From a virus, in IMG/VR virus record IMGVR_UViG_3300045988_162015: a DNA stretch of 19,956 nt; one strand, 5' to 3'. A program made the position numbers and the translations under genes. The notes beneath the pieces are model-generated. The model was not told the origin of the DNA. It searched no databases and saw only the letters and a program-made list of their open reading frames with translations. Shown here in pieces: positions 1-17,909 of the stretch (position 1 is the first letter of the stretch; the number at the start of each line of letters is the position of its first letter).

Positions 1-658
1 AATAAATTAAAGAAGCATTAGTATAATTAGTAGTAGTTGTACTTAATGCTTGAGCGGCCTTATTAGCTTTTTCAGCAAACTAAGCCATCTAATCATTACT
101 CTATCCAGTAACTATACGAATATCATTTAATGATCTATTTAAATCTTCTGCATAATAATAAGCTTTCTATAAAGAACCCTATACTCCATGCATTAAGTTA
201 GATGAAATTTGCCATTTGGCTGTATTAGCTAATGTCTTTTTAAAATTATCTAATATAGCATTAGTTCTTTTTAAAGGAACTTCAGCATTAATAACAGACT
301 ATGCTAATGCAACAAATGCTTTATCACCTGTTGGGCCTAGATTCTCTAAGTGTGTAGCAAAATCCTAAAGAGTATAACCACTCTAGCTTAAACTCTTTGA
401 AAATTTTGATAAATCTAAACGCCCAGTATTAACATTAGTCGCCTAATCTAAAGCAATTTTTAACTCCTAAACTGCTGCCGAGGCTTCATCTATTTCTTTT
501 TTAGTGGCATTAACATCAAAAAATTTAATATTTTTTGTTGCTATCTAATTCATTAAAGTATCTAATGAACTTTGTAAATCTCGTAATTGCTATTTAGCCT
601 GACCTGTATCAGCTGTAAATCGCATATTAACATTATAATTAGCACTGTTATTAGCCAT
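1..658 (-). CDS. Tail tape-measure-like protein, N-terminal part; the gene runs past the window start. It begins at ATG 656-658 and has 11 in-frame TAG codons in the 219 codons visible.
   Basis: Hand translation of the minus strand: MANNSANYNVNMRFTADTGQAK(Q)QLRDLQSS... stays open to position 1 if TAG is read through. SD AAAGGAGC lies 6-8 nt upstream. It is the last gene after the tail and chaperone genes, and a hairpin terminator sits upstream at 705-735. Confidence 0.5.
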
Positions 659-704
659 AAAATAGCTCCTTTCTCTCATTATAAATTTCTATATATATAA
701 AGAA

Positions 705-735
705 AAGGCGAGAGGAACAAAGCCTCTCGCCTTTT
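705..735 (-). terminator. Rho-independent-type hairpin usable on both strands (GGCGAGAGG-n7-CCTCTCGCC plus a T-run).
   Basis: aaggcgagaggaacaaagcctctcgccttttaat. Confidence 0.55.
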
Positions 736-772: not shown

Positions 773-1300
773 TTAACCCATCTTGGTTAAAATATCTTTT
801 ACTAAAGATAGACTCTCAGGATTAGAAATCTTATCTTGCAGTTCATTAACATCTAAGTTCAAATTAGAATAATTCTGATTCATAGCATCCATAATTCCAT
901 AAACACTATTATGATATTTATAATATCCATTAAGCGTTTCATAAGTATAGACTTCTAAATCATCAGTTTGATTACAATCTACTTGCTTCTTCAATTCTTT
1001 TATAAACCCTGATCCAACAAGTAAATCATAAAGTTTATACAAATCTTCTTTTTGCTTATCAGTAAAAGATAAATTTGTATAATTAAATACTATTGCTAAA
1101 TCCATATACATATGGAAAGCAAATTCATTCAAAAATTCATTATTAAAATCAATGACTTGTTGAATGACCAACTAAGCAATATCCATTCTTTCCTTAATAG
1201 ACAAATACTGCTTTACTTCAATAGATTGCTCATTAAAACTCCATTCTTTTACCTAAGAGTTTTTTTGAAGTGTAAGCTTGGAAAATGCCAATTTTGCCAT
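773..1300 (-). CDS. Hypothetical protein of 175 aa; tail-assembly-chaperone candidate by position. Two in-frame TAGs, at 1253-1255 and 1172-1174.
   Basis: ATG at 1298-1300 with AGGAGG 7 nt upstream. Track ORF 773..1171 is only the C-terminal fragment after the second TAG. Stop is TAA at 773-775. Confidence 0.6.
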
Positions 1301-1414: not shown

Positions 1415-2734
1415 TTACTAATCCTCAAAAATTTTTTCAAAATTCATACTAATAGGACTATATAGAGCTTGTTCCATGGACATTCTTCTTTTATCATTTT
1501 CTAAAATACTCTTAGATCCCTATTTTTTATTAAAATATAAATTCATTTCTATATCTTTTGCCAATTTAGCTGTTGATAAAACTTTTAAGAATCCTTCTTT
1601 TTTAGGATTATTAATAACTAAAAATTTAGTACGACCAATATCATTAATAAAATTTGCCATTACATTCTAATAAGCATACTTAGTATCTCCAACTCTTTGT
1701 TTAGCCCCTGTTAATTCATAAATAGCTCTAATTCTAAAAAACATTTTAGGTACATCATTATGCTCGGCCATTTTAGAATGCCTTGCCATACAGTTTAACA
1801 TACGAGCATATCTATATAACTTATAACTTGTATCTCCATCAGCTACAGTTAAAAAAACACGATAAGGATTAGTATGACCTAAACCTATAAAACTATTTGA
1901 TAAATAGTTTTTATCACTAAAAGTAGCTAATGATAGAGCGTTAACTACTCGTTCTAACATTGTTGCAGTAGCTGTTATTGAAATATTATAATTTAATCCT
2001 GTATTATCAGCTTTTATCTATTTACTCTAAATAGCACCGACTTTACCATTTTCTTTAATTTGAGTATAAATAGTGACAGCTTTTAAATTATTTTTTTGAC
2101 GTTCTGTTGTAGTATTACCTGAATCTTTTTTTTCCTGCCCAATTTTATAAGCTAGCCTAGAGAAATAATTTATGGCAGTTTTTGTTGCACTATCTATGAC
2201 TCCATCACCAGCATTAATAATTAAATTTTTCATATTAATACTATCAACTAACTGACCAGAACGATGTGTTTGAGGTAAAGGACCATAGGGCATTTCCATA
2301 TTCTAAAAAGCATAGTCAATAGTAGTAATAAATTCATTCATAAAATTTTCTAATAAAGCACCACGTTCAGAACTATTAGCTCCTTTTTTCACCAATCCTC
2401 CATTAGTAAATAAATTAGGATTTACCATATATAACTAATTAAATAATTCGGCTAAAGCCTAATCCTAAACTATTTTTACTAAAGACTCGGTAGTGAAAGA
2501 CATTTTTTTACTATAATTATTTTGTATCTATTTAATTCCATTTAAAACTTCTTCTAATAATTTAGCGTCCTGAACTTCTTTATTAGTAATCATATCATTT
2601 GGTCGAGCTGCTGCTCTATATACTTCTAAAAGACTACTTAAATAAGTAGGAGTATTTACTTCATTTTTATAAGAAACTCCTTTTTGTTTATAATAAACTA
2701 ACTAATTTTTCTAGGCATTTGTTAATTTTGCCAT
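1415..2734 (-). CDS. Large tail structural protein, sheath or tube candidate, 439 aa. It carries 12 in-frame TAG codons.
   Basis: ATG at 2732-2734 with AAAGGAGAT SD. One frame joins track ORFs 2027..2299 and 1667..1960 through TAGs at 2711, 2702, 2510, 2465, 2459, 2435, 2303, 2027, 2018, 1667, 1520 and 1418. Stop is TAA at 1415-1417. Internal Mets have no SD. A hairpin terminator lies just upstream. Confidence 0.6.
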
Positions 2735-2766
2735 ATATTATATCTCCTTTTTCACATAATAAAAAA

Positions 2767-2798
2767 AAGGAGAGGGATTAACCCTCTCCTTTAATAAT
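2767..2798 (-). terminator. Hairpin terminator (GGAGAGGG-ATTAA-CCCTCTCC) followed on the minus strand by T8.
   Basis: Minus-strand reading: aaaggagagggttaatccctctccttttttttatt. Confidence 0.55.
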
Positions 2799-2942
2799 CT
2801 TATCAATAAGTTCATCCTCTGTAAGAGGAATTTTATTCTCTTTTTCTTGAGAATTTTTATTTTCTTTTTTTGATTTTTTAACTATAACTTTTTCTACTTC
2901 AGATGCTTTAACAGGTCGTGGAGCATTAGAGCTAATAATCAT
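2778..2942 (-). CDS. Small Lys/Glu-rich protein of 54 aa: MIISSNAPRPVKASEVEKVIVKKSKKENKNSQEKENKIPLTEDELIDKIIKGEG.
   Basis: Its ATG overlaps the upstream TAA (TAATTATGA). It has no SD of its own, so translational coupling is possible. Its TAA stop lies in the loop of the 2769-2790 hairpin. Confidence 0.35.
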   Translation of the reverse strand: MIISSNAPRPVKASEVEKVIVKKSKKENKNSQEKENKIPLTEDELIDKIIKGEG

Positions 2943-2944
2943 AA

Positions 2945-4036
2945 TTAAATATCAAAATAGCTGTCATGCATCGGATCATGGATAGTTTGAGTACGATAGA
3001 CACTATCATTATCAATATCTTCAATGACCTGAACAGCAGCCAATACTTTCTTAGTAGGATTGAAACGAGTAGTTCCTGGGAAAGCATCAAGTGTGAAAGT
3101 GAAAGTTGCAGGATCGCCAGTAGCAGCCATACTGAAAGTAAAGTTAGACTAAATCTTGCAGTTAGGAATTATAAATTCGGCAGGAAGATCAACACCATCC
3201 TGAGTACGGAATAAGGTAGAAGCTTCAAGATAGAAGTTGCCACCAAAAGATTCAGCGGTAATTTCAATTTGACGAGCATTGCTAGCCTTCTCAATATAAT
3301 AATCAAGAAGAACAACAGAATCTTTAAATGATTCTAATTTATGTACTGCATTAGCTTCAGCTTCATCAACAATCTTATAAGCAGAAGTAATTTCCTTAAT
3401 CTAAAGACCATAATAAATCTAAGTACCAGCTTTAGCCTTAGTATCAGCTTCTGCATCAGTACAAGTCTTATACTTCATTTCAGTTTCATCAAAATAGAAC
3501 TTTTGAGGTTTCGCAACTGCCCCCGCCTCAGTTTGACGAATAACTGTAGGAAGATAAGGCTCAGTTACTGGTTCATCATTGTCAACACGCATAGCATAAA
3601 TATAATATTCACCTTTATGAGCACCCGTGGTAGTATCAATTTGTTCATATGGTAAATTTTTAATAAAAATTTGTACACTATCCTTATCTTCAGAGAGAGC
3701 CACAGCAGTAGTCTTTTCAGTTACATGTTGCTTAATTGTATTCTGTTTAGAAGCATCAATAAGGCCAGCTCCAGCAAGAATCATGAAACCTTCTGCAGAA
3801 ATAAGAGCATCTTCCATAGTGAATGTTAAAGTACGGTCACCGTCCCAAGCTACTAAACGAGCATTGCCGCGTCCGCCTTGTGCATATACGGTCGTAGAAG
3901 CACCTTCAAGGCTAGAAGTCTTTAATGTATCGAAATAAAGAACTGGTTCGTTCGCATAGAAAACTTTATTACCAACCTTCATAGGAGCACGAGCTTTTAA
4001 TACGACATCGCATATCTCACGAACACCAAATTTCAT
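2945..4036 (-). CDS. Structural protein of 363 aa; tail sheath/tube or other major virion protein. Three in-frame TAGs.
   Basis: ATG at 4034-4036 follows AAGGAGG (ATTAAGGAGGAAATAACCTATG). The frame runs through TAG at 3419, 3401 and 3149 into track ORF 2945..3130. Stop is TAA at 2945. Confidence 0.65.
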
Positions 4037-4115: not shown

Positions 4116-4850
4116 TTAATGAATGTTTTTCATCCAATTGTCAGGTTTTTTATCTGACTTGGCTCCTGCTAATCTACTCTTTACATCAATATCCCAATTA
4201 GTATAAAGAGAAAATCTTTCTATTAAATCGTATAACTAATACAATGTTAAATTCATACAATCTTCTAATGACATTGAATCTAATCCAATAGTCAATGTAG
4301 AAACGTATTGGCTCAAAATGCTTGAATCGGTAACCCCTTTAAGTTCAGCGACCCTTTGACGCCCTTTCATTAATTTATTAGCTATTTCTTGAGCTTTTTT
4401 ATTAGCAGGATTATAATTATCTTGCCCATTTTTATTAGTATCAAAACAAAAAATTTGTCTTGCTACCTACTAAAATAATTCAAAGTTATCATTATCAATA
4501 TTAATCTAAATATCACTTTCATTATACTGAATAACAATAGACCTGGGAGTAAATGTAGACTTTGAATTTGGGAATAGTAATGATAGAACCTATTGCGCAG
4601 CTTTACGCCGTTCATTATTATCTTTCTATAGCATTACCATCATAAATATCTAAAAATTGGTAGTAGTATCCAAATCATTCTTGTCCTGATTTGTTATACT
4701 ATTTTTATTAATACAAAGACACTAAGCACCAGTAAAAAATTCTTTTTCGCCAATTAATGCTATTTCCTTTATCTTAGGCTAATGGAGAGTTAATGGAATT
4801 TCTGGAACAGGTAAATCTGTCCCGCACATTAAACTAAGTTTATAATCCAT
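4116..4850 (-). CDS. Hypothetical virion/neck protein of 244 aa with 9 in-frame TAGs.
   Basis: The frame was rebuilt from reverse-complement strings: MDYKLSLMCGTDLPVPEIPLTLH(Q)PKIKEIALIGEKEFF... ends at TAA 4116-4118. Its start overlaps the upstream stop (TAATG). Confidence 0.55.
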
Positions 4851-5440
4851 TAATTCATTTTAGGCATTTTAAAATAATCCTCGATAAACATTTGTTCATC
4901 AGCAGGATTTGGCATATATTTTTTATCTTCTCCTCCGTGTATTGTATCATATAATAAACAAAGTCCAGCAAATTCATCAGTTAATATAATTTGCTATGCT
5001 CCGACGAAATTAAGTTGCCCAATTCCAGTTAAATGTTTTTTATCTAACATACTATCAAGTTCGGCAGCGATTCTATAAGGTCTTAACTAAAATGAATCAG
5101 CTAATTGCCACTAATCATAATGACAAACAATATCAAATTCAATAGTATTATCCCTAAATTCAGGATTGTCTCCATTAGGAGCAAAGTTATCAAAACTAAT
5201 AACAATATAATTTAAAACATCTTTATCTATATATAATTTTGGTAAATTCCTTATATTTTTACCGAACATTTTTACGAAATTCTAATCACTTACTTCTGGC
5301 AGTCTTAATGCATCAGGAGTAGTATAATAAAGTAATTTACGTAAACGTTGATTCGCGGCCATACGATCAACTATAATTTTCATATCTTTTTCTTGGGCTA
5401 AAAATGCTGACTCTGGATTTTTTACATTATCAATTTTCAT
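4850..5440 (-). CDS. Hypothetical protein of 196 aa with 4 in-frame TAGs.
   Basis: ATG at 5438-5440 follows GAAGGAGAAAACGGAGA. Translation MKIDNVKNPESAFLAQEKDMKIIVDRMAANQRLRK... ends at TAA 4850-4852. Confidence 0.55.
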
Positions 5441-5461: not shown

Positions 5462-6457
5462 TTAAAATAAAGATTCAACTACAATGGTTTTACATTCTGG
5501 CCCATAGAATAAATCAAACTACCCACAGTAGGTAGTTTCCCATCGTAATTTTAAAGTATTTGTTTCTTCATTTACTTTAACTGTTAATGGTAATTTTTTA
5601 TCCCAAGTCCATTTACCAGAGTTAATTCCATCATATTTATATTCATATACTACTTTAGGTTTAATAAAAGTATCACCTATAATACCATTTTCTTTACCCT
5701 AATTAGGATCTTGAACCGGCTATATTAAACCGTTAACAATGCCATTATCAATATCATCAGCAGTTTCATTAGAATAATACTCGACAGCATTAATTTCAAT
5801 TATTCCAGGAGTAGAATACAAATCAGTAGCTTCAATACGCCAACATGTTTTATTAGGGTCATTCTATAAATAAAATTTATTATAACGCTAACATAATTTT
5901 ACATTATCATCATTATAAGGTAATAATATATTTAAAGAATGATTAGGTGTATCTATACTAATTTCATGCTTTTGGATGTAATTAATTTTAGTTTCAACAG
6001 GACCGCGCAAAGCTACATAAGTTTTATGATAATTTTTATTTTCATCTTCCCAAGCAATTTCATAAGAACAACGTCTTATATTGCCACGAAAATAAGCTAA
6101 TTCAGTTAAATCCTGTAAATAAATTAACCAATAAGTATTCGTACCTAACCACTAAAAAATATCCCCAGTTTTAAAATTACTTTCAAAACCAATTGAAATA
6201 ATTTTTTCATCATAATCCTATTTTGTTTTATCAGGGTTAATTAATGCACGACGTTCAATAGTATCTTTATCATCATATAATTTTTTTACCAAGGCAGCTT
6301 GATAAGAATAAAGTAAAGCTCTACTTAATGTTTTACGTTTATCTCTTATCATTCGTTCTTGCTGTCCTGTTACTCCATCACCATATAAATATCTTGTAAG
6401 CATATTGGCTTTTGGAATACGATTATACATTGCATCTAAATATTCATTTTTACTCAA
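5462..6457 (-). CDS. Hypothetical structural protein of 331 aa. TTG start and 7 in-frame TAGs.
   Basis: TTG at 6455-6457 follows AAGGGGG. The frame continues from track ORF 6218..6457 through TAG 6218, 6152, 5888, 5864, 5720, 5699 and 5519 to TAA 5462-5464, which sits directly before the next gene's SD. Confidence 0.5.
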
Positions 6458-6743
6458 TGTGAAGCCCCCTTAATAAAGTAATAGCTTCAAACACTGTTTT
6501 TCTATAAATAGGAAATTCAATTTCGATATTTTTTAATCCCTCTAATTTGCTTAAAAGAATTAAATACTAACTATCATTAAAAATTTCTCCAAGACCGGTT
6601 AATTCAATAATTACAGTATTTAACTAAGATATCCAATCTTCTTCATTTTCTCTCATAGGAATTAATTTCCATATCTAATTAGTGAGTCTATTAATATTAG
6701 TATTAATTAAATTATTGTCTATATCAAAATTATATTTAGTCAT
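6450..6743 (-). CDS. Hypothetical head-tail joining-type small protein of 97 aa with 3 in-frame TAGs.
   Basis: ATG at 6741-6743 overlaps the upstream stop (GATGACTAA). AGGGAGG lies 8 nt upstream. Stop TAA at 6450-6452 overlaps the TTG start of the next gene. Confidence 0.5.
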
Positions 6744-7347
6744 CAAGGGCGCTTACCTCCCTTAGAACAGACCAATTGGATTTAATATATCCATCATCAT
6801 CAGTTTTACGACGTTTATATAATCTCTACATATGAAATGCCTGACGTCTTACTTCTGTTCTCAATGATAACAATTTCTACATATGATTAGCCTATGAAGT
6901 AAATTTAAAATCTGTTCCAGAATATTTCATTCTTGTTACTTCGATAGATGCCAATTGACGTTCCACCCAAGCTTCAACCATGATTAAAGCTAAGATATTA
7001 ATTTCTTCATCATCTAAATCGGCATTAAAATAGGAGGTATTTTCCTCAGAAAATATCTCCTAAAAAGCATTATCTATATCAATATTACTACCAGCTACTT
7101 CTTCAGACAAATCTCCACCTAATGGTATATCAATATCTCCGCCATCAATCTCTCCTTTTATAAAATCAGGAGCATCTTCATCTATTAAAACGTAATCTAA
7201 TCGTTTACGCGGAAATTCAAATCCAGGAATACTATCAACAAGTAATTGGCGTAAATCTAAAAATGTATCACGAGGAGTAAGTTCTAAATACATATCATCT
7301 GTTACTTTGCCTAAAAAACGTTCATAAACTTTATAAAAATATGTCAT
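6736..7347 (-). CDS. Hypothetical protein of 203 aa, head-tail connector/adaptor candidate, with 4 in-frame TAGs.
   Basis: ATG at 7345-7347 follows AAGGAGGG. Track ORF 7060..7347 continues through TAG 7060, 6892, 6877 and 6826 to TAA 6736-6738. Confidence 0.55.
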
Positions 7348-7369: not shown

Positions 7370-7936
7370 TTAACCTTCTTTTACAACATTATAACGAGGA
7401 GCAGTTCTACGACCAGGAGGCGTTGTGGGCTTAGTTTCAGTCTTCACTCTACGTTCAGGAGCTTTTGGAGTAATCTGTTCATCCTCCGCAGCTTCAGCTT
7501 CCTTATTAGCTAATGCTCTATCAAGGTCAAATCCAGTTTTATCTTTAAGAGCTTTACGCTTATTGTAATCACTCATAGGAAGAGATACAGCATAACTCTT
7601 AATCATATCAATAACTCCAATAGGAGCAAAATCAAGGCAGTCAAGGAATTCATCAAGAGTTCCTTCAGTAAGAAGCTTAATAACTCCAGCATCATCTAAA
7701 TAATATTCAGGTTCTGTATGAATACCTAATTCTTCTGTAGTTTCAGTATCCACAATCTTTAAGAAATTTTCCATTAAAGTGCGGCCTCCGCTAAGATAGG
7801 CAAGTTTCTCTAATTCCTCAAAAGGAATTTTCTTAGTTTCTCCAGGTGTAAATTCTCTGCGGATACCTTCTTCAGGAATAGTATAAACAACCATTCCAGC
7901 ACTTCTATTAGTAACTAATAAAATTTTTTTAACCAT
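7370..7936 (-). CDS. Hypothetical head-associated protein of 188 aa with no in-frame TAG.
   Basis: The likely true start is the ATG at 7934-7936 (MVKKILLVTNRSAG...), with AAAGGAGAAT upstream, rather than the track's 7993. Stop is TAA at 7370. A hairpin terminator lies upstream. Confidence 0.6.
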   Translation of the reverse strand: MVKKILLVTNRSAGMVVYTIPEEGIRREFTPGETKKIPFEELEKLAYLSGGRTLMENFLKIVDTETTEELGIHTEPEYYLDDAGVIKLLTEGTLDEFLDCLDFAPIGVIDMIKSYAVSLPMSDYNKRKALKDKTGFDLDRALANKEAEAAEDEQITPKAPERRVKTETKPTTPPGRRTAPRYNVVKEG

Positions 7937-7967
7937 TTTTTTTATTCTCCTTTTACTCATAAAACAA

Positions 7968-8003
7968 AATAGGGGAGAAGGGGATTTCCCCATTCTCCCC
8001 TAA
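7968..8003 (-). terminator. Hairpin terminator after the capsid gene (GGGGAGAA...TTCTCCCC with inner GGGGA/TCCCC) plus a U-rich tail.
   Basis: aggggagaaggggatttccccattctcccc. Confidence 0.55.
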
Positions 8004-8036
8004 AAATATTATATATTAATTTTTAGTTAATATCAA

Positions 8037-9173
8037 TTACGGCTTATCTTCATTACCGCCATCAATAGTATCATGAGAACCAGTAATCTGACCAGCATAG
8101 TCACGGACCTTACCAGTTACGCCATCAAGATGCCATGTCTTCATATCACCAAGAAGTTCAGTATCACAATAGCAGCAGATGTTATTAGCTAACATAGCAA
8201 TAACGCCAACTTTCTTATAAACCTGAATTTCACGACTACGATCATAATTGGTATATTCATCAACAATGGTATTGCCTTCCATAGCAACCTTTACAGGCTT
8301 ACTATCAGCACCAGTAGGAATAATCCAAGCATAACCTGGGTCAATGACTTTCTTTTCATTAGTAGCATCTTCAAAGCCCTGCTCAAGAATAACAACTTTA
8401 TAGCCCTTATAGGAAGCAAGACGGCCAGTATTCCAAAGCTCATTTTTCATAGCTTCAGTATAACGCCAAGCATCCTTCGGAATCATACGAACAGCAAATT
8501 CATAAGTGCAATAAATAGTAGGAGTACCATAAGCAGAAGCAATCATAAGTAACTTATCAAAACCGGGTTCATCAAAACCATTAGCAACTAAACGGTTAGC
8601 AGGAGGTAACTGGTTAACAGAAGCCTTTAAAGCACCGGCAATTTCTTTATAGATAAGTTCATCCATACCTTCCATGACGATCTGGGTAACAACACCAAAA
8701 TCGACACGGCCATCAAGGAATTCCTCAAAGCCAATTTGAGCAGCTCCGCCGATAGCGCTTGTGCGGACTTCAAAGCTTTCTTCAGTCTTACCAAGCTTGA
8801 ATACTTCATAGATACCAGCTAGGCCGACACGAGTGATGAATTGCTTTGCGCGAGTATTGTTGCTGAACTTTCTACGGAAAATAGGCTTGTCACCCTGTTT
8901 AAACGTCTTAACTTCAGCAAACTGATTATATTGCTCTTCAACTTTCTTAGGAAGAACTTCATCAATAGTTTCCTCAATCATCGAGAAAATAAGGTTCTTA
9001 TTATCACGATATAAAGAATAAGTTCCAGCAAGTTCATTTAATTCTCTGCGGAGAGTTTCATTAAGAGCATCATAAGAAAGGCTTTCGCCATTAAAGCTGT
9101 AAGCAGTAGGAGTAGAAGGATCAGCCTTAGCGACAGTCTTCATTAATTGAACAAGATTTTTTCTATCTAACAT
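8037..9173 (-). CDS. Major capsid protein candidate of 378 aa, free of TAG codons.
   Basis: An intact track ORF with an AAAGGAGAGAAG SD. It lies between the scaffold-like gene and a strong terminator. Size and sequence style resemble HK97/T7-fold coat proteins. Confidence 0.6.
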   Translation of the reverse strand: MLDRKNLVQLMKTVAKADPSTPTAYSFNGESLSYDALNETLRRELNELAGTYSLYRDNKNLIFSMIEETIDEVLPKKVEEQYNQFAEVKTFKQGDKPIFRRKFSNNTRAKQFITRVGLAGIYEVFKLGKTEESFEVRTSAIGGAAQIGFEEFLDGRVDFGVVTQIVMEGMDELIYKEIAGALKASVNQLPPANRLVANGFDEPGFDKLLMIASAYGTPTIYCTYEFAVRMIPKDAWRYTEAMKNELWNTGRLASYKGYKVVILEQGFEDATNEKKVIDPGYAWIIPTGADSKPVKVAMEGNTIVDEYTNYDRSREIQVYKKVGVIAMLANNICCYCDTELLGDMKTWHLDGVTGKVRDYAGQITGSHDTIDGGNEDKP

Positions 9174-9190: not shown

Positions 9191-9967
9191 TTACGCGATT
9201 CGCATAATCTTAACGCCCTTCTGATGATCAGGCATTTCATAAACCTTGACAACCTACCATTGGATAGAGCCATCACCAGATTTAGAAAGCATACCATCAG
9301 CAGCACGAGGACTTAAAACATCGCCAACTACAAGAGTAGCTTCGGCAATAGTATTAGTCGTAAAAATATCACCAACGTTGGTCTTGAAAACACGAGGAAC
9401 CATATTAGTGCCAGCAGGCATTCTACGGGCCTCATAAGGACCATCAAAATGTAAAGGATCTTCTTCATAGAAGAGTTCACGAATATCAGGACCAGCAGTG
9501 ACATCATCATACTCATAAGTATGTTGTACACCCTGACTATCTGTAATAGTCATAGAAGTATTACCTTCGGCATCCTTGCCGTTTAAATAGCGAGCCTGAC
9601 GTGTACCAATTTCCTGCTTGCCATCATAGGGGCTGTAATAACGAGCCTGATAATCATCTTTGCGCATAGCAAATTCGCAATCAGCTTGTTCCTCACGATA
9701 AAGTTTAATTTCATTATAAACTAACATCCATTCGCCCTTGCCAGTGAAATCAACTTCACCAAGCTCACCAGCAGCATAGTCATACTTAACAAACTGGCCA
9801 TTTTCAAGAAGCTGGATATTTCTGTTAGCAGGTAATTGAGCATAAATCTGACCAGTGCGTTGAGCACTTAAATGATTAGGCTCAACCTGACCATAGCCAT
9901 ATTCAACGTAGCCGCCCTTAACAGCAGATACGCCGCTTAGGTCTTTAAGCATATCTTTTAAAAGCAT
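9191..9967 (-). CDS. Hypothetical head protein. Track ORF 9254..9967 (237 aa) would gain a 20-aa extension if TAG 9254-9256 is read through, ending at TAA 9191-9193.
   Basis: ATG at 9967 follows AAGGAGG. After TAG the same frame reads QVVKVYEMPDHQKGVKIMRIA, then TAA. Confidence 0.5.
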
Positions 9968-9991: not shown

Positions 9992-11557
9992 TTATTCCAT
10001 AGTTTTCGCAACATCCTATACTGCCTTAATCCAAGCAGGAATGCTATCGTCATTTACATCATTATTAATATTATATGTAAGTGGGTCATTTTCTTTCTTT
10101 TCATTAGTATCGAAATTGACCTTATTGCGAACACAGATAATAGAAAGCTTTGCTTCAATATCATCTAATGAATAAGTATCAATATTAGCAACAACATCTT
10201 TCTTATCATCATCAGATAACATATAGAAACTATTAATCATTTCTTGTTTCTTTTCTCTTTCAGCCTCAGTCTTAAACTGAGTTAAAGAAGCAAGTTCTTG
10301 TTCGAGTTGTGTTTGCTTTTCAACTAATTCATTATATTTAGTTTCAAGCGCGGCGTACTCGTCTTTTAATAAACCATATTCAACTATATCTTCCAAAGAG
10401 TACTTAGCTTTCTTTTTCTTTTTTTTCTCTTCGTCATCCTCAGTTGGTTCTTCTTCTTCATCAGAAGTATCAGTTGGTTTATTTTCGGGAGTGTCCTTCT
10501 TTTCATCATCTTTTGGCTGATCTTTAGAAGGATCTTCCTTATTATTATCATTATTCTCTTTATTGTCTTTATCTTTTTCGTCCTTTTTTTTCTTCGCAAA
10601 TTCTGCGACTTTTTCAGGATCGAATTGAGGATTATCAGAAACAGAATAATCAGTTAATTCAGAAACTTCACCAGGAGTGAAAGTATCATTCTCCATAGAA
10701 AAATCTAAACGAACGAACTTATCATCTTCCTTGACAATAGCAAATAAATTACCATTGTCTTCGCAAACTTCTTCAATCATTGCATTACCTGCTCCGAAGC
10801 CCTTAATGTAAGAATAAAGAGAAGTCCAAATGGAATCACCAATCTCCACACTATATCTTGTGAACACTTTTGTTCCTCCTTTACCTTCTAATAATTCTTT
10901 TAAATCTTTCATCATAGAGAATAATTGCTCATTAAATTTATCACTAAATGAGAAATGCATCGTAGGAGCAGTAATATTAGCTCCTTCAAAACAAGGTTCA
11001 CAATCTTCTCCAAGAATACAAAGTTTCTTAATTATTGCTTCATTTATAATAAAAAATTCGGGCATTCCATTCTTATCTTTCGACCAATACGCATTAATTT
11101 TTTCATCATCTAATTCCATAGATTGATTATTACCTTTTTCAATAATACGTTTACTTTCTGGATAGATATCTGTCCAGATATAGCCTTCAGTCATTAAATA
11201 TTCATGCTCGTTTTTTCCATCATCTAAAAATTTCTAAAACCATACTTTGGCTCCCAAGTCTACAAAACCATAAGGAACAGTAGTATCTTTAATATCAAAT
11301 TTACCATTAGAAATATCAATAATACGATTATGTTCTTCATAATCCCCATTGACTTCATTAAAATAACCAACGATAGGACTACCTGGTAAACTTTGCGCTA
11401 AATCTTTAGCAACTTCTTTTGTTATAACACTTCTATTGCGATTTGGTTTATCACCAACATAACAAACTTTAATCTAACATTTAGAAATTAAAGGATTGAT
11501 TTTAGTGATATTAATAAACTCAACAGGAGTATCTAACTTAACACTTGTATGTCTCAC
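9992..11557 (-). CDS. Prohead protease/scaffolding-like protein of 521 aa. It has a GTG start, a long D/E/K low-complexity coiled-coil C-terminal half, and 3 in-frame TAGs.
   Basis: GTG at 11555-11557 sits 7 nt after AAGGAGG. The frame is continuous into track ORF 10016..11194 through TAG 11474 and 11234, then through TAG 10016 to a TAA TAA double stop at 9992. The N-terminal region is globular. The C-terminal part is KKKKDEKDKDNKENNDNNKEDPSKDQPKDDEKKDTPENKPTDTSDEEEEPTEDDEEKKKKKK plus coiled coil. Confidence 0.5.
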
Positions 11558-11569: not shown

Positions 11570-13258
11570 TTATTTACCAGCCGCTTGACGATTAGCGATT
11601 GTTTTTTCACTCTTTTCATCATTAGCTTTTTCTGGCCGACCGCTTTCTTTAGTTTCTGTTTTTACAGTAGTGGCATTTCCACTTGTTTTATTTTGAGAAG
11701 TGTTAGAACTATTCTAATCTTTTTTACCCAAAATATCTTCACCATTTAATGTAGAACTCATAAGAGGCGGTATCATAACTTCACTTAAATGTAGAACTTC
11801 ATTTTCAAAATGAGCTGTATTAAGAATAAAACTCTATGACTATCCAAGAGCAATCTAAGGTAACATTTTAGAGAAACCAATCTAAGTTTGCTCTTTATAC
11901 ATCTTAGATAAATCTTTATAATTATACTATGTAGTTTCTAACATATAGAATTTATAATTATATTTTTTCTAAACATTCAGGACTGATAATATTCTATCAA
12001 AAAATATGTTGAATTGCAAAATTAAATTACGCATGGTAGATTCATCATCTAAGATAGACTTTTCCAACGCAATATTGCCATCTGTATTAAATAAATTGCG
12101 CGAAACGCCAAATGCATTATATACGGTTCGTTCAACACGCTCTAATTCATCTGTGGTAGCAGAAGTATTTTTATCAGAAGTATCAATAGCATCTACATCT
12201 GCAAAAGTAGTTAATACATCAACACCTACAGCTCTACGCAACATTTCAACAGCATTATTATGAATATCACGAGCTTCATCAATATCAAAAATCAAATCAC
12301 CATTTTTATCAAGTGGTAATTTCTAAACTAAAATCTTTAATAATTTTTGCATCTACTTGCGGCGGTCTAAATCTTGTGCAGCATCTAAATCCAAAATTGC
12401 TGGAATAGCATTTACAAATAATGGAATATCATTAGTACCATTTAAAGCAAACTTAATAGTGCTTTGTGGATCTAATAAATACCAACTACCAGTATTATCA
12501 CCAGCTACATCAGGTAAAAGTTTACCAGCCTTATAGAGACGATAACCTATTGTAAATTCATCAGGAAATAATTTTAATACTCTATTACGGTAATTAGTAT
12601 CCACAAAAGTATCAAAGTATCTCATATCAAATTCAATAGCAGGTAAATTACCTACTGAATATCTTGAACGACAATACTCAATAGGAAGTTGCTATAAAAT
12701 TAAACCAGTACTTGAGGGAACAATATAGGCATAATAAGCTCCACATTTGATAACTTCAAGAGCCATATCGCCACAAATTTTCTTAATATAAGAATTATCT
12801 AAATAATTTAAAATTCGCCAGAAATCTTTTACTGCTTTTGTTTCATTAATATCTTTAACAGCAGAACCGTCAGTATTATTAGACTAAATAGCAATAGCCC
12901 AATCATAACGATACATATTCGCAAAATAATTACATACTCTTTGATAAATACCGCTTACTCTAAAAAAGAAACGTGATATTCTTCGCAATTCTTGAATATC
13001 ATTACGAATTAAAGCATCCATAACCATGGGCTTTGTATAAATACGTTCACGGCTATACTTTTCATTGCGGCGACCGTAAGTGTCCCATCTGAAAGATCCA
13101 AGATTTAAGACAGCATCGTCTAATGTCTTAACACCAACCTTAATCTTCTTATATTCATTTGGGCCAACTGCAGAATACTCACGTACTCCTCCAGTTATGT
13201 CAAAACCTTTTTTATGTATCTATTCATTTCTGGTTAATTCTTCCTTTTCTAATTCCAT
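11570..13258 (-). CDS. Portal protein candidate of 562 aa with about 11 in-frame TAGs.
   Basis: ATG at 13256-13258 follows AAGGTG. One frame joins track ORFs 12353..12625 and 11969..12295 through TAGs at 13220, 12692, 12353, 12323, 11969, 11927, 11882, 11855, 11840, 11834 and 11714. Stop TAA at 11570-11572 directly abuts the next gene's SD. Size and its position between terminase and scaffold fit a portal. Confidence 0.6.
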
Positions 13259-13275: not shown

Positions 13276-13632
13276 TTAATATCCAGCTTTTCGCATTATA
13301 TAATCATAAGAAATTAAATTTTCTTCTGTATAAGGAATTTCTATTAAATGTAAATCATGTAAAGCACAGAATCTACGTTTTTGATTATCATTATATTGCT
13401 ATTGATATAATCCACGTTTTCCACCAAATTTATTACTGGCTTCATAATGCTATTTCCCTTGATATTCAATTAAAAAATCAATATTATTATCATCATCAAA
13501 TATAACAAAATCAAAACGTAAAGGACGACCATTATGTGTTTTTAAATCTGGAAATATATATTCCATCTTAAAATTCAGGCCGGCTTCCTCTAAGATTTCT
13601 CTAATCTTAATTTCCGCACGACTGGCATCCAT
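13276..13632 (-). CDS. Small DUF559/Vsr-like (PD-(D/E)XK-type) endonuclease-fold protein of 118 aa with 2 in-frame TAGs.
   Basis: ATG at 13632 follows AAAGGAGA. Track ORF 13450..13632 continues through TAG 13450 and 13399 to TAA 13276. The motif ...FDFVIFDDDNNIDFLIEYQGKQHYE...QKRRFCALHDLHLIEIPY resembles the iEvDGxQH ... R...L...G..vlRf signature. Confidence 0.45.
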
Positions 13633-13720: not shown

Positions 13721-15472
13721 TTAATTCATAAACATCCAATCAGCAGCCCGGAATTTTTTCTTCTTTTTATCTTCTTCTATTTTTTTTATATAATATAATC
13801 CATACTCTAATGCAGAGAATTTATCTTTTTTAATACTTTTATTAGCTTGTTTTAAAATTATATTTAAACCTTCATTTTCTTCACGTAGATTCATAATCTC
13901 TTCGCGTAATGAAGTAGTTAAACTGAATGGTCTTAAATAATCAGATCGCGCTTCTGTGGTCATATTCTAGCCCACTTTAGTAGTTAATAATTTCTATTTA
14001 GCAGTTCGTTCATCAATTAAAAATTTAATCTTACCAGAATTTAATACTGACTAAGTAATACTATGTGCTTCAGTATTAATTGGTGCATTAGCTTTCATTA
14101 AGTATAAAACATCTAATTCTGTACTATTGGTTTTATATTTTTTATATTCTTGAACTGCATCATCCTAAGTTCCACCATAAACACCAAAATCAGGAATTAC
14201 TTCAGAAGTTTCAGGATTAATCTGTGGTTTAACCATAAAATCAACTAAACCAACACCAAGTCCATTAGCATCTATTACAATTCTACGAGCTTTATATTTA
14301 TAATATAATTTTTTAAGTTTAATAGCCTAATCTTCAAAATGGGTATCATTCATAGTATAAATATTAACTAAACTTTTAATCGGTTCACCATGCGGTTGCG
14401 GCGTTACTTTAAATACACAAACAACAGTATCGCATCCTTTACGGCCTACGTCAACACTTAATATATAATAAGATAATTTACTTGAACGACCAGAAGCTTC
14501 ATACTCAGGCTAATTCAGTATTCTATTTCTATTAAATATTTCTGCATTAAAGAAAGCGTCTTCAACTGTACCAGACCAAATTGATTCATATTCACGTTCG
14601 AAAGAAGCTTCATTATAAGTTCCTTCATTTTTTTGGTCAGTAATAAATGTTTTCTGCTGTAATCCAACAGCAACAGGAGTTCGCCAAGTTCCGCCTAATA
14701 CCATACATCTATCAGGCTATGTAATCATACGAACTAATAAACCAATTAATCTATCATAAGGATAAGTATTTTTATAGCCAGCAGTAGTAATATAAATCTA
14801 TGATTTATTTACCGCTTCTTCTTCATGAGTTGTACCATCCTTAGCTCTACGAGGAATAGCCATAACTGGTATAATGACTTCGCGCAAAATCTAATCATCA
14901 ATACCTACACATTCTTCCATTAGACCGCCATGACGACGCTGACCACGAGTACTTTCTCTCGCAGCTAAATTATCAAGGACAGAGCCATTCTTAAATACAT
15001 AACGTACTTTATCTTTACTCTCTTGGCTCTTACCTCGACCCCAATCAATTTCACGTTTAAAGCTCGGTATTAAGTCACAAATTTCATTAACTTTGTCATG
15101 TAGAATACTTGCACCTTGTTCCTTACCTCCAGAAGTAACAAATAAATGAACACCAGGATAAAGAATACATCTAACCATTAATGCCATAACTGATAAAAAT
15201 GATTTAGAATAGGCACGAGGGAAAACTGCATAAACATATTGATAGCGCATTACACATCTTAAAAAAACACGCTAATAGAAGAAAAATTTAAATTCTCCTT
15301 CTTTCTATTCTGTACGTGTTCCTCGCACTAAAAAATCAACAAATAAATCTGGATATTCGCGCCAAAAGGCAGTATATTTACGAATGACTGGCATTACGGC
15401 ATTAATACGTTCTTCAGAAAGACCTATTTTTTTTCGGCTTGTAGATAGGTCAAGTAAATCTTGTAACGCCAT
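13721..15472 (-). CDS. terL: Terminase large subunit of 583 aa with 11 in-frame TAGs.
   Basis: ATG at 15470-15472 overlaps the upstream stop (TAATG). It joins track ORFs 14891..15250, 14510..14704 and 13721..13963. A Walker-A-like AVFPRAYSKS is present, plus an RNaseH-like nuclease region (VDVGRKGCDTVVCV...ARRIVIDANGLGVGLVDF) and FEREYESIW. Stop is TAA at 13721. Confidence 0.75.
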
Positions 15473-16686
15473 TAATCTTCTCTATCAGAGAAAGCATCTA
15501 TATCTAACTCTGTCTCATTATCTAAAAATTCACTAAAGTCTTCAATATCTTTATCTTCTAAAGTTTTTTCAATGTCTTCAATAGACATATCAACATCATC
15601 AACAATTGTGTCTTCGACGTTTTCTTTAGCCTATTCATCTTCTTTAGCGTTTTGTTTTAATGCCTAATCAATCATATTGCCAAGATTAGTTTCTCGTTCA
15701 ATTAAAGTACGAGTATATTTCTACATATCTTTAATTGTAAAATCTACTTTATCATTTGGAGTATCAATATAATATCTTTCGATATAGCCTTGTTTCTCAC
15801 ACATTTCTATTAATTCACCAACAGAATCAATGAAATCGCCAGATTCTTCTTTATTCTAGGCAGCAGTAAATTTGCCCGATTTCATTAAAGAATCATACAT
15901 TTTAATCATCTTTTGGGCGCCGTCTACATCACCTATATCTAATAACTAATTAGATTTTAATGATGTCTTACAGGCAAGTTTTAATGTGTCAATATGGCCT
16001 GCAGACTAAATATCGTAAGACTGCATCATTTCATTAAATAACTGCTCTAAGCGCACCCATTCATCAGGGCTATAGCCTTTTCCCCATTTTAAATAAAGAT
16101 ATCGTTTATCTTCGTCTGTCAGCTCTGCACCTAAGTCAGGAACATCAAAATCTAATTTATCTTTAAAATAATCTTCTGCAGAATTCCCAAAATCTAGGGG
16201 AGGAGGTGCAGGAGGAGGTGGCTCTTTTAATTCTTCTGATGGCAAAGCAAATGAAGCACGTTGAATGGCTGTAGTAATATCTTGAACATCATATCCCTAT
16301 TGCTTCATTGTTTCTTCTATTTTTTTATTTTGTAAGTCTTGCAAGAATTGACTATCTTTCCATCTATAATCTTTCCATTGATTTAATTTCATTGCAGAGA
16401 GATAGCGACCTAATATTGTCATTCCAGTGACTTTCGCTCTATCCTTCGCAAATTTACCCATTAACTAATTCCACTAATCAGGAATGTAAGGAACATCACA
16501 TTCTTGCAATATCCATAGATAAGTATCCGGATTCCAATTATCTACATGCATTGTTATACATTTTTTACATTTTGGTAATTTACCATCGTTAGGATATTTA
16601 TCTAAATTATTAGATGTATAAAACTAAGTTCCATCCATAGTTTTATTACATTTTTCACAGTAATATTGTTTACCTTCGCTGGACAA
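15472..16686 (-). CDS. Zinc-ribbon DNA-binding protein of 404 aa with an acidic C-terminus; terminase small subunit candidate by position. About 10 in-frame TAGs.
   Basis: TTG at 16684-16686 sits 8 nt after AAAGGAGA, just past an in-frame TGA. The protein contains CEKCNKT...DGKLPKCKKC and track ORF 16006..16245. It ends at TAA 15472-15474, overlapping the terL ATG. Confidence 0.45.
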
Positions 16687-17880: not shown

Positions 17881-17909
17881 TTGACAATTATAGAAAATTT
17901 TTGTATAAT
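17881..17909 (+). promoter_or_regulatory. Consensus promoter on the plus strand (TTGACA-17-TATAAT) driving the 17939 gene.
   Basis: ttgacaattatagaaaatttttgtataat. Confidence 0.6.

What the first reader, a model, noticed from the sequence alone, without database searches (positions are those of the whole stretch)
7370..9173. TAG density is very uneven: capsid-region genes avoid it while tail, portal and terminase genes are loaded
My counts of in-frame TAGs per gene: 0 in the capsid gene (8037-9173), 0 in 7370-7936, 0 in the small 2778-2942 gene, 12 in the 1415-2734 tail protein, 11 each in terL, the portal and the 219 visible tape-measure codons, and 9 in 4116-4850. The plus-strand early-type genes (17939-18567) have none. 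This pattern is what incomplete or timed suppression would produce, with the most abundantly made protein kept TAG-free, and it may mark an early/late expression switch.
Basis: seen in the sequence. Interest (0 to 1): 0.6.

Follow-up and report, generated by a model that had tools for sequence, protein, structure and literature searches.

The report
Abundant virion genes avoid recoded TAG
In this gut phage that reads the stop codon TAG as glutamine, the genes for the most abundantly made virion proteins (capsid, tail tube and two capsid neighbours) almost never use TAG while low-copy genes use it for about half their glutamines, which indicates that TAG behaves as a poorly translated codon that selection removes from highly expressed genes.

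Summary
The window is the late (virion) module of a TAG-to-Gln (code 15) phage related to phAss-1. TAG counts per gene are strongly non-uniform (G=61.9, df 18, p~1e-6). The capsid gene and g10 have none, g12 has 1 and the major tail gene g04 has 3, against 9-12 in TMP, g03, g05, g17, portal and TerL.

The pattern recurs in 58 recoded relatives and in phAss-1. In 22 standard-code relatives, which have no in-frame TAGs, the same four genes already form a separate codon-usage class. They have higher GC, prefer CAG, avoid ATA/CGA/AGG/GGG, and prefer CGT/GGT/GCT/CTT/TTC/AAC.

TAG use is graded. Across about a dozen recoded lineages, the TAG share of Gln codons falls with codon adaptation (rho=-0.91, and -0.84 without the four genes). 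TAG sites turn over fast, so the absence is actively maintained.

Best explanation: TAG is a non-optimal synonymous Gln codon under mutation-selection balance. CAG-to-TAG drift is tolerated in low-copy genes and purged from high-expression genes. The "early/late switch" idea is not supported for this pattern.

The recoding is already known. The graded, expression-linked avoidance appears under-described in phages, and its closest analogue is in ciliates.

The parts
2..658 (-). g01, tape-measure protein (N-terminal 219 codons; runs off the window): 12 TAG, 5.5 per 100 codons, TAG = 71% of Gln-type codons
   Evidence: phrog_34405 tail length tape measure; counts
703..735 (-). terminator-like hairpin (13-bp stem) between g02 and the TMP gene
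   Evidence: consensus scan only
773..1300 (-). g02, unknown function (position of a tail assembly chaperone): 2 TAG, intermediate codon adaptation and intermediate TAG share (17%)
1415..2734 (-). g03, unknown late protein: 12 TAG in 439 codons
2766..2792 (-). strong terminator-like hairpin (11-bp stem, 6 GC pairs, T-run) straddling the stop codon of g03b (2778-2780), at the 3' end of the g04-g03b pair
2778..2942 (-). g03b, small ORF (54 codons): 0 TAG, only 1 Gln codon, so uninformative
2945..4036 (-). g04, major tail (tube) protein: 3 TAG in 363 codons in the window, essentially 0 in 56 recoded relatives; GC 0.375; strong SD (AGGAGG)
   Evidence: phrog_2729 virion structural protein; homologues annotated major tail protein / tail tube protein
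4116..4850 (-). g05, unknown late protein: 9 TAG in 244 codons; includes a near-universal TAG at codon 66 (4650-4652)
4850..5440 (-). g06, virion structural protein: 4 TAG
   Evidence: phrog_6123
5462..6430 (-). g07, unknown late protein: 7 TAG
6450..6743 (-). g08, unknown: 3 TAG (all 3 of its Gln-type codons)
6736..7347 (-). g09, unknown: 4 TAG
7370..7936 (-). g10, unknown protein just downstream of the capsid gene: 0 TAG (but only 1 Gln codon); 0.06 TAG per 100 codons across 58 recoded relatives; GC 0.36; SD AGGAG upstream of the ATG at 7936
8037..9173 (-). g11, major capsid protein: 0 TAG in 378 codons, 11 Gln codons (7 CAG, 4 CAA), GC 0.39, highest codon adaptation
   Evidence: phrog_4088; 24-28% identity to annotated major capsid proteins of Bacillus phages Thrax1/3 and Kirov, 49% to the phAss-1 MCP
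9191..9967 (-). g12, unknown protein just upstream of the capsid gene: 1 TAG (9254-9256, a sense codon at an invariant Gln), 9 CAG + 5 CAA, GC 0.416, SD AGGAGG
   Evidence: AF2 model unusable
9992..11557 (-). g13, phrog_3313 (globular N-terminal half, acidic/Lys-rich linker, coiled coil; probably a head maturation/scaffold-type protein): 3 TAG. Intragenic split across relatives, with the N-half TAG- and ATA-rich and the C-half nearly TAG-free
11234..11236 (-). TAG at g13 codon 107 (VWFqK): present in 53 of 58 recoded loci, with the other 5 carrying a TAG at the adjacent codon; CAA/CAG in all standard-code loci
11570..13258 (-). g14, portal protein: 12 TAG in 562 codons, 0 CAG
   Evidence: phrog_2739
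13276..13632 (-). g15, HNH/homing endonuclease between portal and TerL: 2 TAG
   Evidence: phrog_9084/559
13721..15472 (-). g16, terminase large subunit: 11 TAG in 583 codons
   Evidence: phrog_2 and others
15472..16638 (-). g17, phrog_3314, unknown (position of a small terminase or packaging protein): 10 TAG
16705..17769 (-). sigma-factor gene, first gene of the minus-strand array: one ORF joined through a single TAG at 17479-17481; sigma-70-like promoter at 17826-17798 just upstream
   Evidence: both halves hit phrog_5767 at consecutive profile positions; one continuous alignment in 71 loci
18130..18567 (+). g20, divergently transcribed small gene: 0 TAG, 2 Gln codons; consensus sigma-70 promoter at 17881-17909
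19582..19956 (+). g21, partial plus-strand gene: 0 TAG, 8 Gln codons, GC 0.44

Best explanation
The window is the late/virion module of a phage that decodes TAG as glutamine (genetic code 15). In this phage TAG is a synonymous but poorly translated Gln codon. AT-biased mutation keeps converting CAG to TAG, a single C-to-T transition. Once a suppressor tRNA(CUA) is present, the change is nearly neutral in genes made in small amounts (portal, terminase, tape measure, baseplate-type proteins), so TAG drifts up to about half of their Gln codons. In genes translated at very high levels (major capsid protein, major tail protein, the two capsid-flanking genes, and to a lesser degree g13 and g02), translational selection purges TAG, along with ATA, CGA, AGG and GGG, and keeps CAG. 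The cost of TAG is either premature termination through competition with release factor 1 or slow decoding by a scarce suppressor tRNA. Shown here: the uneven counts, TAG = Gln, the conserved gene-class pattern, the pre-existing codon-bias class in standard-code relatives, the graded correlation, and the fast turnover of TAG sites. Inferred: that codon adaptation reflects expression level, that g10 and g12 are high-copy proteins, and the physical cause of the cost of TAG.
For: TAG = Gln: standard-code relatives have Q at 52% of residues aligned to the window's TAGs (background 4.2%), and Q is the majority at 42/84 sites. Non-uniformity: G=61.9, p=1e-6. Recurrence: in 58 TAG-recoded relatives, TAG per 100 codons is 0.03-0.13 for g04, g10, MCP and g12, against 1.3-3.6 for TMP, g03, g05-g09, portal, HNH, TerL and g17. 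The same holds in phAss-1, at 49% MCP identity and a different genomic GC. Pre-existing class: in 22 standard-code relatives the same four genes have GC 0.365-0.389 and CAG/(CAA+CAG) of 0.50-0.72, against 0.18-0.34 elsewhere. General codon bias is typical of translational selection and is not a plain GC shift: ATA 1-4% vs 21-25%; CGT, GGT, GCT, CTT, TTC, AAC and ATC preferred; GCG, CCG, TCG and GGG avoided. This holds in both code types. Graded relation: using codon weights learned only from standard-code relatives and excluding Gln, Spearman rho between codon adaptation and TAG share is -0.91 (p=1e-7) over 18 genes pooled across 13 lineages, and -0.84 (p=2e-4) without the four genes; in the window alone rho=-0.62, p=0.006. 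TAG:CAG odds are 0.028 vs 4.3 (OR 156). Turnover: lineages at about 60% protein identity share only 1-4 of about 10 TAG sites, and 219 of 376 TAG columns are lineage-specific, so the absence of TAG must be maintained. CAG is the commonest partner at discordant TAG sites among the closest relatives (31%) although it is rare in those genes. Abundance proxies: capsid and major-tail identities, strong SD sites on all four genes, and a terminator-like hairpin right after the g04-g03b pair. The +4 base after TAG is depleted in T and enriched in C relative to CAA, the direction expected for weak termination contexts. Analogue: ciliates use reassigned stop codons less in highly expressed genes (PMC10553269).
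Against: No expression, proteomic or read-through data exist for this uncultured phage, so 'highly expressed' rests on codon adaptation and on the identities of two of the four genes. g10 and g12 have no assigned function (Pfam, PDB profile search and AF2 all failed), and the g04 model was too weak for a fold match. g10 has only one Gln codon in the window, so its zero is uninformative on its own. Within the window, the correlation disappears once the four genes are removed (rho -0.33 and -0.10, n.s.); the graded signal needs the family data, whose lineages are not phylogenetically independent. The sigma-factor gene is TAG-poor (1 of 10 Gln-type codons) despite low codon adaptation, so expression level cannot be the only factor. 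g09 and g13 also have strong SD sites. No suppressor tRNA lies in the window or in any of the 80 late-module loci. In crAss-like phages a 'tail tube' family prefers TAG, although that is a low-copy podovirus tubular protein.
Confidence: 0.7

Rival explanations
1. Timed suppression: the TAG-free genes must be translatable before the suppressor tRNA accumulates, so the pattern marks a temporal (early versus late) expression class rather than an expression level.
For: Published models hold that recoded stops delay late-gene translation (Borges preprint). The capsid gene and g10 are readable in both codes. A sigma-70-like promoter match lies between the capsid gene and g10 at 8036-8008. The sigma-factor gene is TAG-poor although poorly codon-adapted, which fits a timing constraint on that gene.
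Against: The TAG-free genes are embedded in, and co-oriented with, the late operon, and are flanked on both sides by TAG-rich genes with 17-80 nt gaps. Promoter-like matches are no more frequent than in shuffled sequence (104 vs 101.8). The same genes carry a general high-expression codon bias in standard-code relatives, where no timing-by-TAG can operate. TAG share is graded, not binary. There is no biological reason for capsid and tail tube to be made before portal and scaffold.
Confidence: 0.12
2. Regional composition or mutation bias: the capsid block and g04 are simply GC-richer stretches (for example from different replication- or transcription-associated mutation), and a lower T-for-C substitution rate, not selection on translation, keeps CAG from becoming TAG.
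For: The TAG-poor genes have GC 0.36-0.42 against 0.24-0.32 elsewhere. In phAss-1, TAG-rich genes are the AT-richest (GC 0.33-0.36 against 0.48-0.51).
Against: The codon shift is not a GC3 shift. GC-ending GCG, CCG, TCG, ACG, GTG and GGG are avoided, and T-ending CGT, GGT, GCT and CTT are preferred. g04 is separated from the capsid block by 3.3 kb of TAG-rich, AT-rich genes. g13 changes style in the middle of the gene. The class is stable across lineages with genomic GC from 0.31 to 0.445.
Confidence: 0.08
3. Mosaic origin: the capsid block (and g04) was recently acquired by recombination from a standard-code, GC-richer relative and has not yet had time to accumulate TAGs.
For: Standard-code and recoded lineages are interleaved in the family tree. 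The capsid protein is more similar between lineages (median 78%) than its neighbours (52-67%). Close relatives show mosaic divergence.
Against: All 58 recoded loci and phAss-1 show the same four genes TAG-free, which would require the same transfer again and again. TAG sites turn over quickly elsewhere. g10, g12 and g04 are no better conserved (52-53%) than TAG-rich portal or TerL. The window's g12 and g04 have begun to acquire TAGs at invariant Gln sites.
Confidence: 0.03
4. Protein-level constraint or chance: the TAG-free genes have few or immutable Gln positions, or the zeros are sampling noise.
For: g10 and g03b have only one Gln codon each in the window, and Gln content varies 0.5-7.8% between genes.
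Against: The capsid gene, g12 and g04 hold 11, 15 and 14 Gln-type codons, of which 0, 1 and 3 are TAG, against about 50% elsewhere (Fisher p=6.5e-6). Heterogeneity survives normalisation to Gln-type codons (p=0.01). CAA/CAG/TAG interchange is synonymous, so protein constraint does not bear on it.
Confidence: 0.02

Closest known systems
Stop-codon-recoded (code 15, TAG to Gln) gut phages with standard-code early genes and recoded late genes (Ivanova 2014, from my own knowledge; Borges et al. preprint 10.1101/2021.08.26.457843; Peters et al. PMC9523058; Yutin et al. PMC7886860)
   Same: In-frame TAG read as Gln. Recoded codons concentrated in structural genes. Low GC. Close standard-code relatives exist. 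Borges et al. already propose that selection enriches or depletes recoded stops in particular gene families, and that stop codons are the least efficiently translated codons.
   Different: Those studies contrast early with late blocks, report families that prefer TAG (lysis genes, the crAss tail-tubular protein) and one that avoids it (integrases). They do not describe avoidance by the capsid and major-tail genes inside the late block, nor a graded link to codon adaptation.
phAss-1 and the proposed Phassvirus group (Babkin et al. 2023, PMC10607447; GenBank OQ749652)
   Same: Same broad phage group: MCP 49%, TerL 42% and portal 38% identity, with shared gene order around the capsid. TAG to Gln with three tRNA(CUA) genes. 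The paper notes TAG in TerL and TMP. In my analysis its MCP, g13-like and g04-like genes are TAG-free and CAG-rich.
   Different: A different genus-level lineage (GC 0.445 against about 0.31; larger TMP; extra genes). The paper does not comment on the TAG-free high-copy genes or on codon adaptation.
Amber-reassigned crAss-like phage of Segatella copri (bioRxiv 10.64898/2026.08.21.746148)
   Same: The authors note, as a surprise, that the major capsid protein gene shows no alternative codon usage although the other late genes do.
   Different: An unrelated phage order. It is a single-genome remark without a test, and the explanation offered there is not translational selection.
Reduced use of reassigned stop codons in highly expressed genes of ciliates (McGowan et al. 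2023, PMC10553269)
   Same: Reassigned UAA/UAG codons are used less in the top-expressed genes, which also have higher GC. The authors suggest translational inefficiency. This is the same logic as proposed here.
   Different: It concerns a cellular eukaryote with a fixed code and mutated eRF1. Here a virus imposes the code transiently on a standard-code host whose RF1 is presumably still active.
Classical translational-selection codon bias in highly expressed phage structural genes
   Same: A discrete set of high-copy structural genes with optimal codons, strong SD sites and avoidance of rare codons such as ATA, AGG and CGA.
   Different: Here the set of avoided 'rare codons' includes a reassigned stop codon.

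Membership tests
Genetic code 15 (TAG to Gln) phage | Conserved phage genes are interrupted by in-frame TAG and become full-length when TAG is read through; other stops do not behave this way | tested here: met
   ORF total 7944 aa against 3720 aa with TAG read-through, and no gain with TGA. Full-length portal, TerL, TMP and sigma-factor matches.
Genetic code 15 (TAG to Gln) phage | In-frame TAGs align with glutamine in homologues that use the standard code | tested here: met
   52% Q at aligned positions against a 4.2% background. Q is the majority at 42/84 sites, and the rest are E, K and similar.
Genetic code 15 (TAG to Gln) phage | TAG is not used as a terminator; genes end in TAA or TGA | tested here: met
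   TAGs near the ends of g12 and g13 are followed by sequence conserved in relatives, and all checked orthologues end in TAA (rarely TGA).
Genetic code 15 (TAG to Gln) phage | Genome encodes a suppressor tRNA with anticodon CUA (or another suppression mechanism) | not testable with these tools
   No tRNA in the window or in the 80 related late-module loci. An attempt to reach the tRNA region of the parent contig found only phAss-1 relatives. phAss-1 has three tRNA(CUA) genes.
Early standard-code / late recoded block architecture (temporal code switch) | Early (replication or regulatory) genes lack in-frame TAG while late genes carry them | tested here: inconclusive
   The only candidate early genes in the window are two plus-strand ORFs with 270 codons and 10 Gln codons, 0 TAG (P=0.085 and 0.12). 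In phAss-1 the late plus-strand block is TAG-rich and the replication block TAG-poor (crude ORF calls).
Early standard-code / late recoded block architecture (temporal code switch) | TAG-free genes form a separate transcription unit or temporal class | tested here: not met
   The TAG-free genes are interleaved with TAG-rich genes on the same strand with short gaps. Promoter-like matches are not above the shuffled expectation.
Translational-selection codon-usage class (highly expressed genes) | A subset of genes shares a distinct synonymous-codon preference across many amino acids that is not a simple GC shift | tested here: met
   15 of 18 amino acids differ at p<0.01 in both the standard-code and the recoded sets (D and C do not differ in the standard-code set; H is marginal there at p=0.03 and does not differ in the recoded set). 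ATA, CGA, AGG, GGG, GCG and CCG are avoided; CGT, GGT, GCT, CTT, TTC and AAC are preferred.
Translational-selection codon-usage class (highly expressed genes) | The class is conserved in relatives and independent of the recoding | tested here: met
   The same four genes stand out in 22 standard-code loci and in phAss-1.
Translational-selection codon-usage class (highly expressed genes) | Members are the genes with the highest measured expression or copy number | not testable with these tools
   Only inferred. MCP and major tail protein identities come from annotated homologues. g10 and g12 are of unknown function.
phAss-1-like phage group (proposed Phassvirus and relatives) | Shared signature proteins and gene order with phAss-1 | tested here: met
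   MCP 49%, TerL 42%, portal 38%, plus g04, g05, g06, g07, g13 and g17 orthologues in the same neighbourhood. The divergence is too great for the same genus.

The most novel reading that the evidence does not exclude
TAG density is not just relaxed drift. It could be a tuned translational attenuator that sets virion-protein stoichiometry from a polycistronic late transcript, with each TAG costing a fixed fraction of full-length product. In addition, a few TAGs may be held in place as gates. The TAG at g13 codon 107 is present in all 58 recoded relatives (shifted by one codon in 5 of them), the TAG at g05 codon 66 is present in 12 of 13 lineages, and every recoded relative has at least one TAG in the sigma-factor gene that heads the late operon. 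Together these would couple late transcription and head maturation to the arrival of the suppressor tRNA.
Probability: 0.15. Interest if true: 0.75.

Novelty: new member of a known kind. Interest (0 to 1): 0.45.

Why it matters
Why phages reassign stop codons is an open question, and the leading idea is a timer for lysis and late genes. This family contains recoded and standard-code sister lineages with the same gene order, which acts as a natural control. That control shows that much of the gene-to-gene variation in TAG use follows ordinary codon-selection rules. TAG behaves as the worst Gln codon: tolerated where little protein is needed and purged where a lot is needed. This implies that suppression is costly or incomplete during infection, a testable prediction. 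It cautions against reading every TAG-free gene as 'early'. It also offers a practical cue for annotation: inside a recoded late module, the TAG-free, CAG-rich genes are likely to be the major capsid and tail proteins. Code-prediction tools that segment genomes into code blocks could misread such genes as standard-code islands.

Tried and rejected
1. TGA or TAA recoding: no tidy gene array.
2. TAG as a genuine terminator for g12 (9254-9256) and g13 (10016-10018): rejected, because relatives have Q there and a conserved tail follows.
3. An apparently conserved in-frame TAG in the sigma-factor gene of standard-code relatives: an artefact of my over-long start call. It maps to window codon 12, upstream of where alignments begin and inside the promoter region.
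4. A nested internal start for a scaffold product in g13 at the conserved Met-Met near codon 214: no Shine-Dalgarno motif in 12 of the 13 lineages where the motif was found. The intragenic split remains unexplained.
5. Function of g04, g10, g12 and g13 by Pfam and PDB sequence-profile search: nothing.
6. The MCP against PDB sequences: nothing.
7. The AF2 model of g04 (pLDDT 63) with Foldseek against PDB: no credible match. The AF2 model of g12 (pLDDT 45): unusable.
8. GenBank annotation of phAss-1 for functional names: the record is annotated under the standard code as hypothetical proteins.
9. Suppressor tRNA: none in the window or in the 80 loci. The NrdD handle found only phAss-1 relatives.
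Full report
**What the window is.** Under the standard code the minus strand is shredded into short ORFs. Reading TAG through restores a contiguous, co-oriented gene array (ORFs of at least 100 aa total 7944 aa, against 3720 aa; TGA read-through gives no gain). PHROG matches identify a tape-measure protein (partial), virion structural proteins, a portal, a homing endonuclease, the large terminase and a sigma factor. The sigma-factor gene's two standard-code fragments hit consecutive parts of one profile and align as one gene in 71 related loci. The capsid protein (8037-9173) is 49% identical to the MCP of phage phAss-1 and 24-28% identical to annotated major capsid proteins of Bacillus phages. 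There is no tRNA in the window. GC is about 0.31, with local rises at 3-4 kb and 8-10 kb.

**Checking the observation.**
- The capsid gene, g10 (7370-7936) and the small ORF 2778-2942 have no TAG.
- g12 has 1 TAG, g13 has 3 in 521 codons, and g04 has 3 in 363.
- TMP, g03, g05, portal, TerL and g17 carry 9-12 each.

Heterogeneity is highly significant by length (G=61.9, df 18, p=1e-6). It remains significant when normalised to the number of Gln-type codons (p=0.01). For the four TAG-poor genes against the rest, TAG vs CAA+CAG is 4/37 against 92/107 (p=6.5e-6).

**What TAG means.** The search for related loci returned 80 loci from 100-200 kb gut phage contigs (MCP identity 72-100%). Of these, 58 are TAG-recoded and 22 use the standard code. 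In the standard-code relatives, 52% of residues aligned to the window's TAGs are Gln (background 4.2%), and Q is the majority residue at 42 of 84 sites. TAGs close to the 3' ends of g12 and g13 are sense codons: relatives have Q there and the downstream tail is conserved. Real stops are TAA or, rarely, TGA. This is genetic code 15, as already published for phAss-1, which carries three tRNA(CUA) genes (PMC10607447).

**The pattern is a property of the genes, not of this genome.** In all 58 recoded loci, g04, g10, the capsid gene and g12 have 0.03-0.13 TAG per 100 codons. TMP, g03, g05-g09, portal, HNH, TerL and g17 have 1.3-3.6. g02, g13 and the sigma gene are intermediate. phAss-1 has a different genomic GC (0.445) but shows the same pattern. 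Its MCP, g13-like and g04-like genes and the gene after g04 have no TAG, GC of 0.48-0.51 and a CAG share of 0.8-1.0 (0.5 for the g13-like gene). Its TMP has 110 TAGs in 3150 codons, GC 0.36 and a CAG share of 0.10.

TAG sites turn over quickly:
- Lineages at about 60% protein identity share only 1-4 of about 10 sites in portal, TerL or g05.
- 219 of 376 TAG-bearing alignment columns are lineage-specific.

There has therefore been ample opportunity for TAG to enter the four genes. They offer many one-step targets (327 CAG codons over 13 lineages) and hold only 9 TAGs. The TAG:CAG odds are 0.028, against 4.3 in the other genes (OR 156).

**The key control.** The 22 standard-code relatives have no in-frame TAGs at all, yet the same four genes already stand apart. 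Their GC is 0.365-0.389 and they use CAG for 50-72% of Gln codons, against 18-34% in the other late genes. The difference extends to most amino acids and is not a simple GC3 shift:
- ATA is 1-4% of Ile codons, against 21-25%.
- CGA, AGG, GGG, GCG, CCG and TCG are avoided.
- CGT, GGT, GCT, CTT, TTC, AAC and ATC are preferred.
- This holds in both standard-code and recoded sets.

This is the usual signature of translational selection on highly expressed genes. It rules out recent import from a standard-code phage. It also makes a purely temporal explanation unnecessary.

**A graded relation.** I scored each gene with codon weights learned only from the capsid gene against the non-special genes of standard-code relatives, leaving out Gln codons. 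Pooled over 13 recoded lineages, the score correlates with TAG per 100 codons (rho=-0.87) and with the TAG share of Gln-type codons (rho=-0.91, p=1e-7). Without the four genes, the values are still -0.75 and -0.84 (p=0.002 and 2e-4). In the window alone rho=-0.62 (p=0.006), but this loses significance once the four genes are removed. g13 and g02 are intermediate on both axes.

**Identity of the TAG-free genes.**
- g11 is the major capsid protein.
- g04 has homologues annotated as major tail protein (Bacillus phages Thrax1/4/5, KoopaTroopa), tail tube protein (Kirov) and structural protein (Lactococcus 949 group). It lies upstream of g03, g02 and the tape-measure gene.
- g10 and g12 flank the capsid gene and have no recognisable family. 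Pfam, PDB profile search, tblastn against annotated phages and AF2 were all uninformative. That they are high-copy head proteins is an inference from position and codon usage.
- All four genes have strong Shine-Dalgarno sites, whereas TerL and g05 have none and the portal's is weak. g09 and g13 also have strong ones.
- A strong terminator-like hairpin follows the g04-g03b pair, and another precedes the TMP gene.

**Mechanism.** The most economical reading is mutation-selection balance on a synonymous codon. Among the closest relatives, CAG is the commonest partner at sites where only one genome has TAG (31%), although CAG is rare in those genes. That fits single C-to-T steps. In low-copy genes, TAG reaches about 40-60% of Gln-type codons and CAG collapses from about 25% to about 7%. 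In high-expression genes, selection keeps CAG. The base after in-frame TAG is depleted in T and enriched in C relative to CAA. That is the direction expected if weak termination contexts are favoured, but the effect is small and the sample is not phylogenetically independent. Whether the cost of TAG is premature termination by RF1 or slow decoding was not testable here.

'The most abundantly made protein kept TAG-free' is supported. 'An early/late expression switch' is not supported for this pattern. The TAG-free genes are interleaved with TAG-rich ones in one late operon, and promoter-like matches are at the shuffled expectation. The class exists without recoding. The two plus-strand genes are too small to test an early/late contrast. 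Timing may matter elsewhere. The sigma-factor gene that heads the array behind a sigma-70-like promoter is TAG-poor despite poor codon adaptation, yet it carries 1-7 TAGs in the recoded relatives where its full length could be aligned.

**Comparison with the literature.**
- Recoding, its enrichment in structural and lysis genes, and the idea that selection enriches or depletes recoded stops in gene families are all published (Borges preprint; Yutin; Peters).
- The phage group itself is published (Babkin 2023).
- A 2026 preprint remarks, as a surprise, that the MCP of an amber-reassigned crAss-like phage has no alternative codons.
- In the papers I could search, I found no statement that capsid and major-tail genes systematically avoid the recoded codon, or that TAG share tracks codon adaptation.
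- The closest analogue is the reduced use of reassigned stop codons in highly expressed ciliate genes (PMC10553269).

I therefore file the window as a new member of a known kind, with an under-described but unsurprising quantitative property.

**Loose ends.**
1. g13 changes codon style in mid-gene across 16 lineages. There are 46 TAGs and 78 ATAs in codons 0-260, against 4 TAGs and 19 ATAs in codons 260-530. The boundary lies near a conserved Met-Met, but there is no Shine-Dalgarno motif there.
2. Two TAG columns are near-universal, g13 codon 107 and g05 codon 66, each in 12 of 13 lineages. No other column exceeds 8 of 13.
3. All 58 recoded loci have TAG at g13 column 107, or at the adjacent codon in 5 of them, while the standard-code loci have CAA or CAG.
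4. A simple NJ tree places two standard-code clades among deep recoded lineages. So either the code changed more than once, or this TAG has been retained from a common recoded ancestor while other TAG sites turned over.

Noticed in passing
window 11234-11236 (g13 codon 107) and 4650-4652 (g05 codon 66): Two near-universal TAG sites. Each is TAG in 12 of 13 recoded lineages, while no other of the 376 TAG-bearing columns exceeds 8 of 13. All 58 recoded loci have TAG at g13 column 107 (53 loci) or at the adjacent codon, replacing Lys (5 loci). The standard-code relatives have CAA or CAG. This may be a retained ancestral TAG or a selected translational gate.
   Followed up: partly
window 9992-11557 (g13): Intragenic change of codon style that is conserved across 16 lineages. 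The N-terminal half is TAG- and ATA-rich (46 TAG, 78 ATA). The C-terminal half (acidic linker plus coiled coil) is nearly TAG-free and CAG-rich (4 TAG, 19 ATA). This suggested a nested, highly translated scaffold product as in lambda C/Nu3, but there is no SD motif upstream of the conserved internal Met-Met near codon 214.
   Followed up: partly
window 16705-17769, TAG at 17479-17481; promoters at 17826-17798 (-) and 17881-17909 (+): A phage sigma-factor gene (phrog_5767) heads the minus-strand late array, directly behind a sigma-70-like promoter and back to back with a perfect-consensus promoter for the plus-strand gene. It is one ORF joined through a single TAG, and the recoded relatives where its full length aligns carry 1-7 TAGs at varying sites. 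It is TAG-poor for its low codon adaptation. Full-length sigma would need the suppressor, which is a possible coupling of late transcription to the code switch.
   Followed up: partly
loci L008-L024, L070-L073, L076 against the other loci: Standard-code and TAG-recoded phages with the same gene order and 72-82% identical capsid proteins coexist in this family. In a simple NJ tree of MCP+portal+TerL, two standard-code clades are nested among deep recoded lineages, implying more than one change of code state.
   Followed up: partly
window 13276-13632 (g15): An HNH/homing endonuclease gene sits between portal and TerL and is the best-conserved gene after the capsid (median 82% identity over 80 loci). 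It carries in-frame TAGs (2 here), so this mobile-element-type gene is adapted to the phage's code.
   Followed up: no
window 2766-2792 and 703-735 (minus strand): Two strong terminator-like hairpins inside the late array. One straddles the stop codon of g03b, at the 3' end of the major tail gene pair g04-g03b. The other lies between g02 and the tape-measure gene. Both are consistent with transcriptional attenuation ahead of low-copy genes.
   Followed up: no
recoded loci, non-HI late genes: The base before in-frame TAG is strongly biased: C 0.04 and G 0.11, against 0.10 and 0.23 before CAA, and T 0.48 against 0.35. This may reflect CTAG avoidance or a mutational context for CAG-to-TAG changes.
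   Followed up: no
homologues of g04 (P0001-P0120): All database homologues of the major tail protein carry a precomputed Pfam family, PF27173, that is absent from the local Pfam copy. Its description could not be read here.
   Followed up: no
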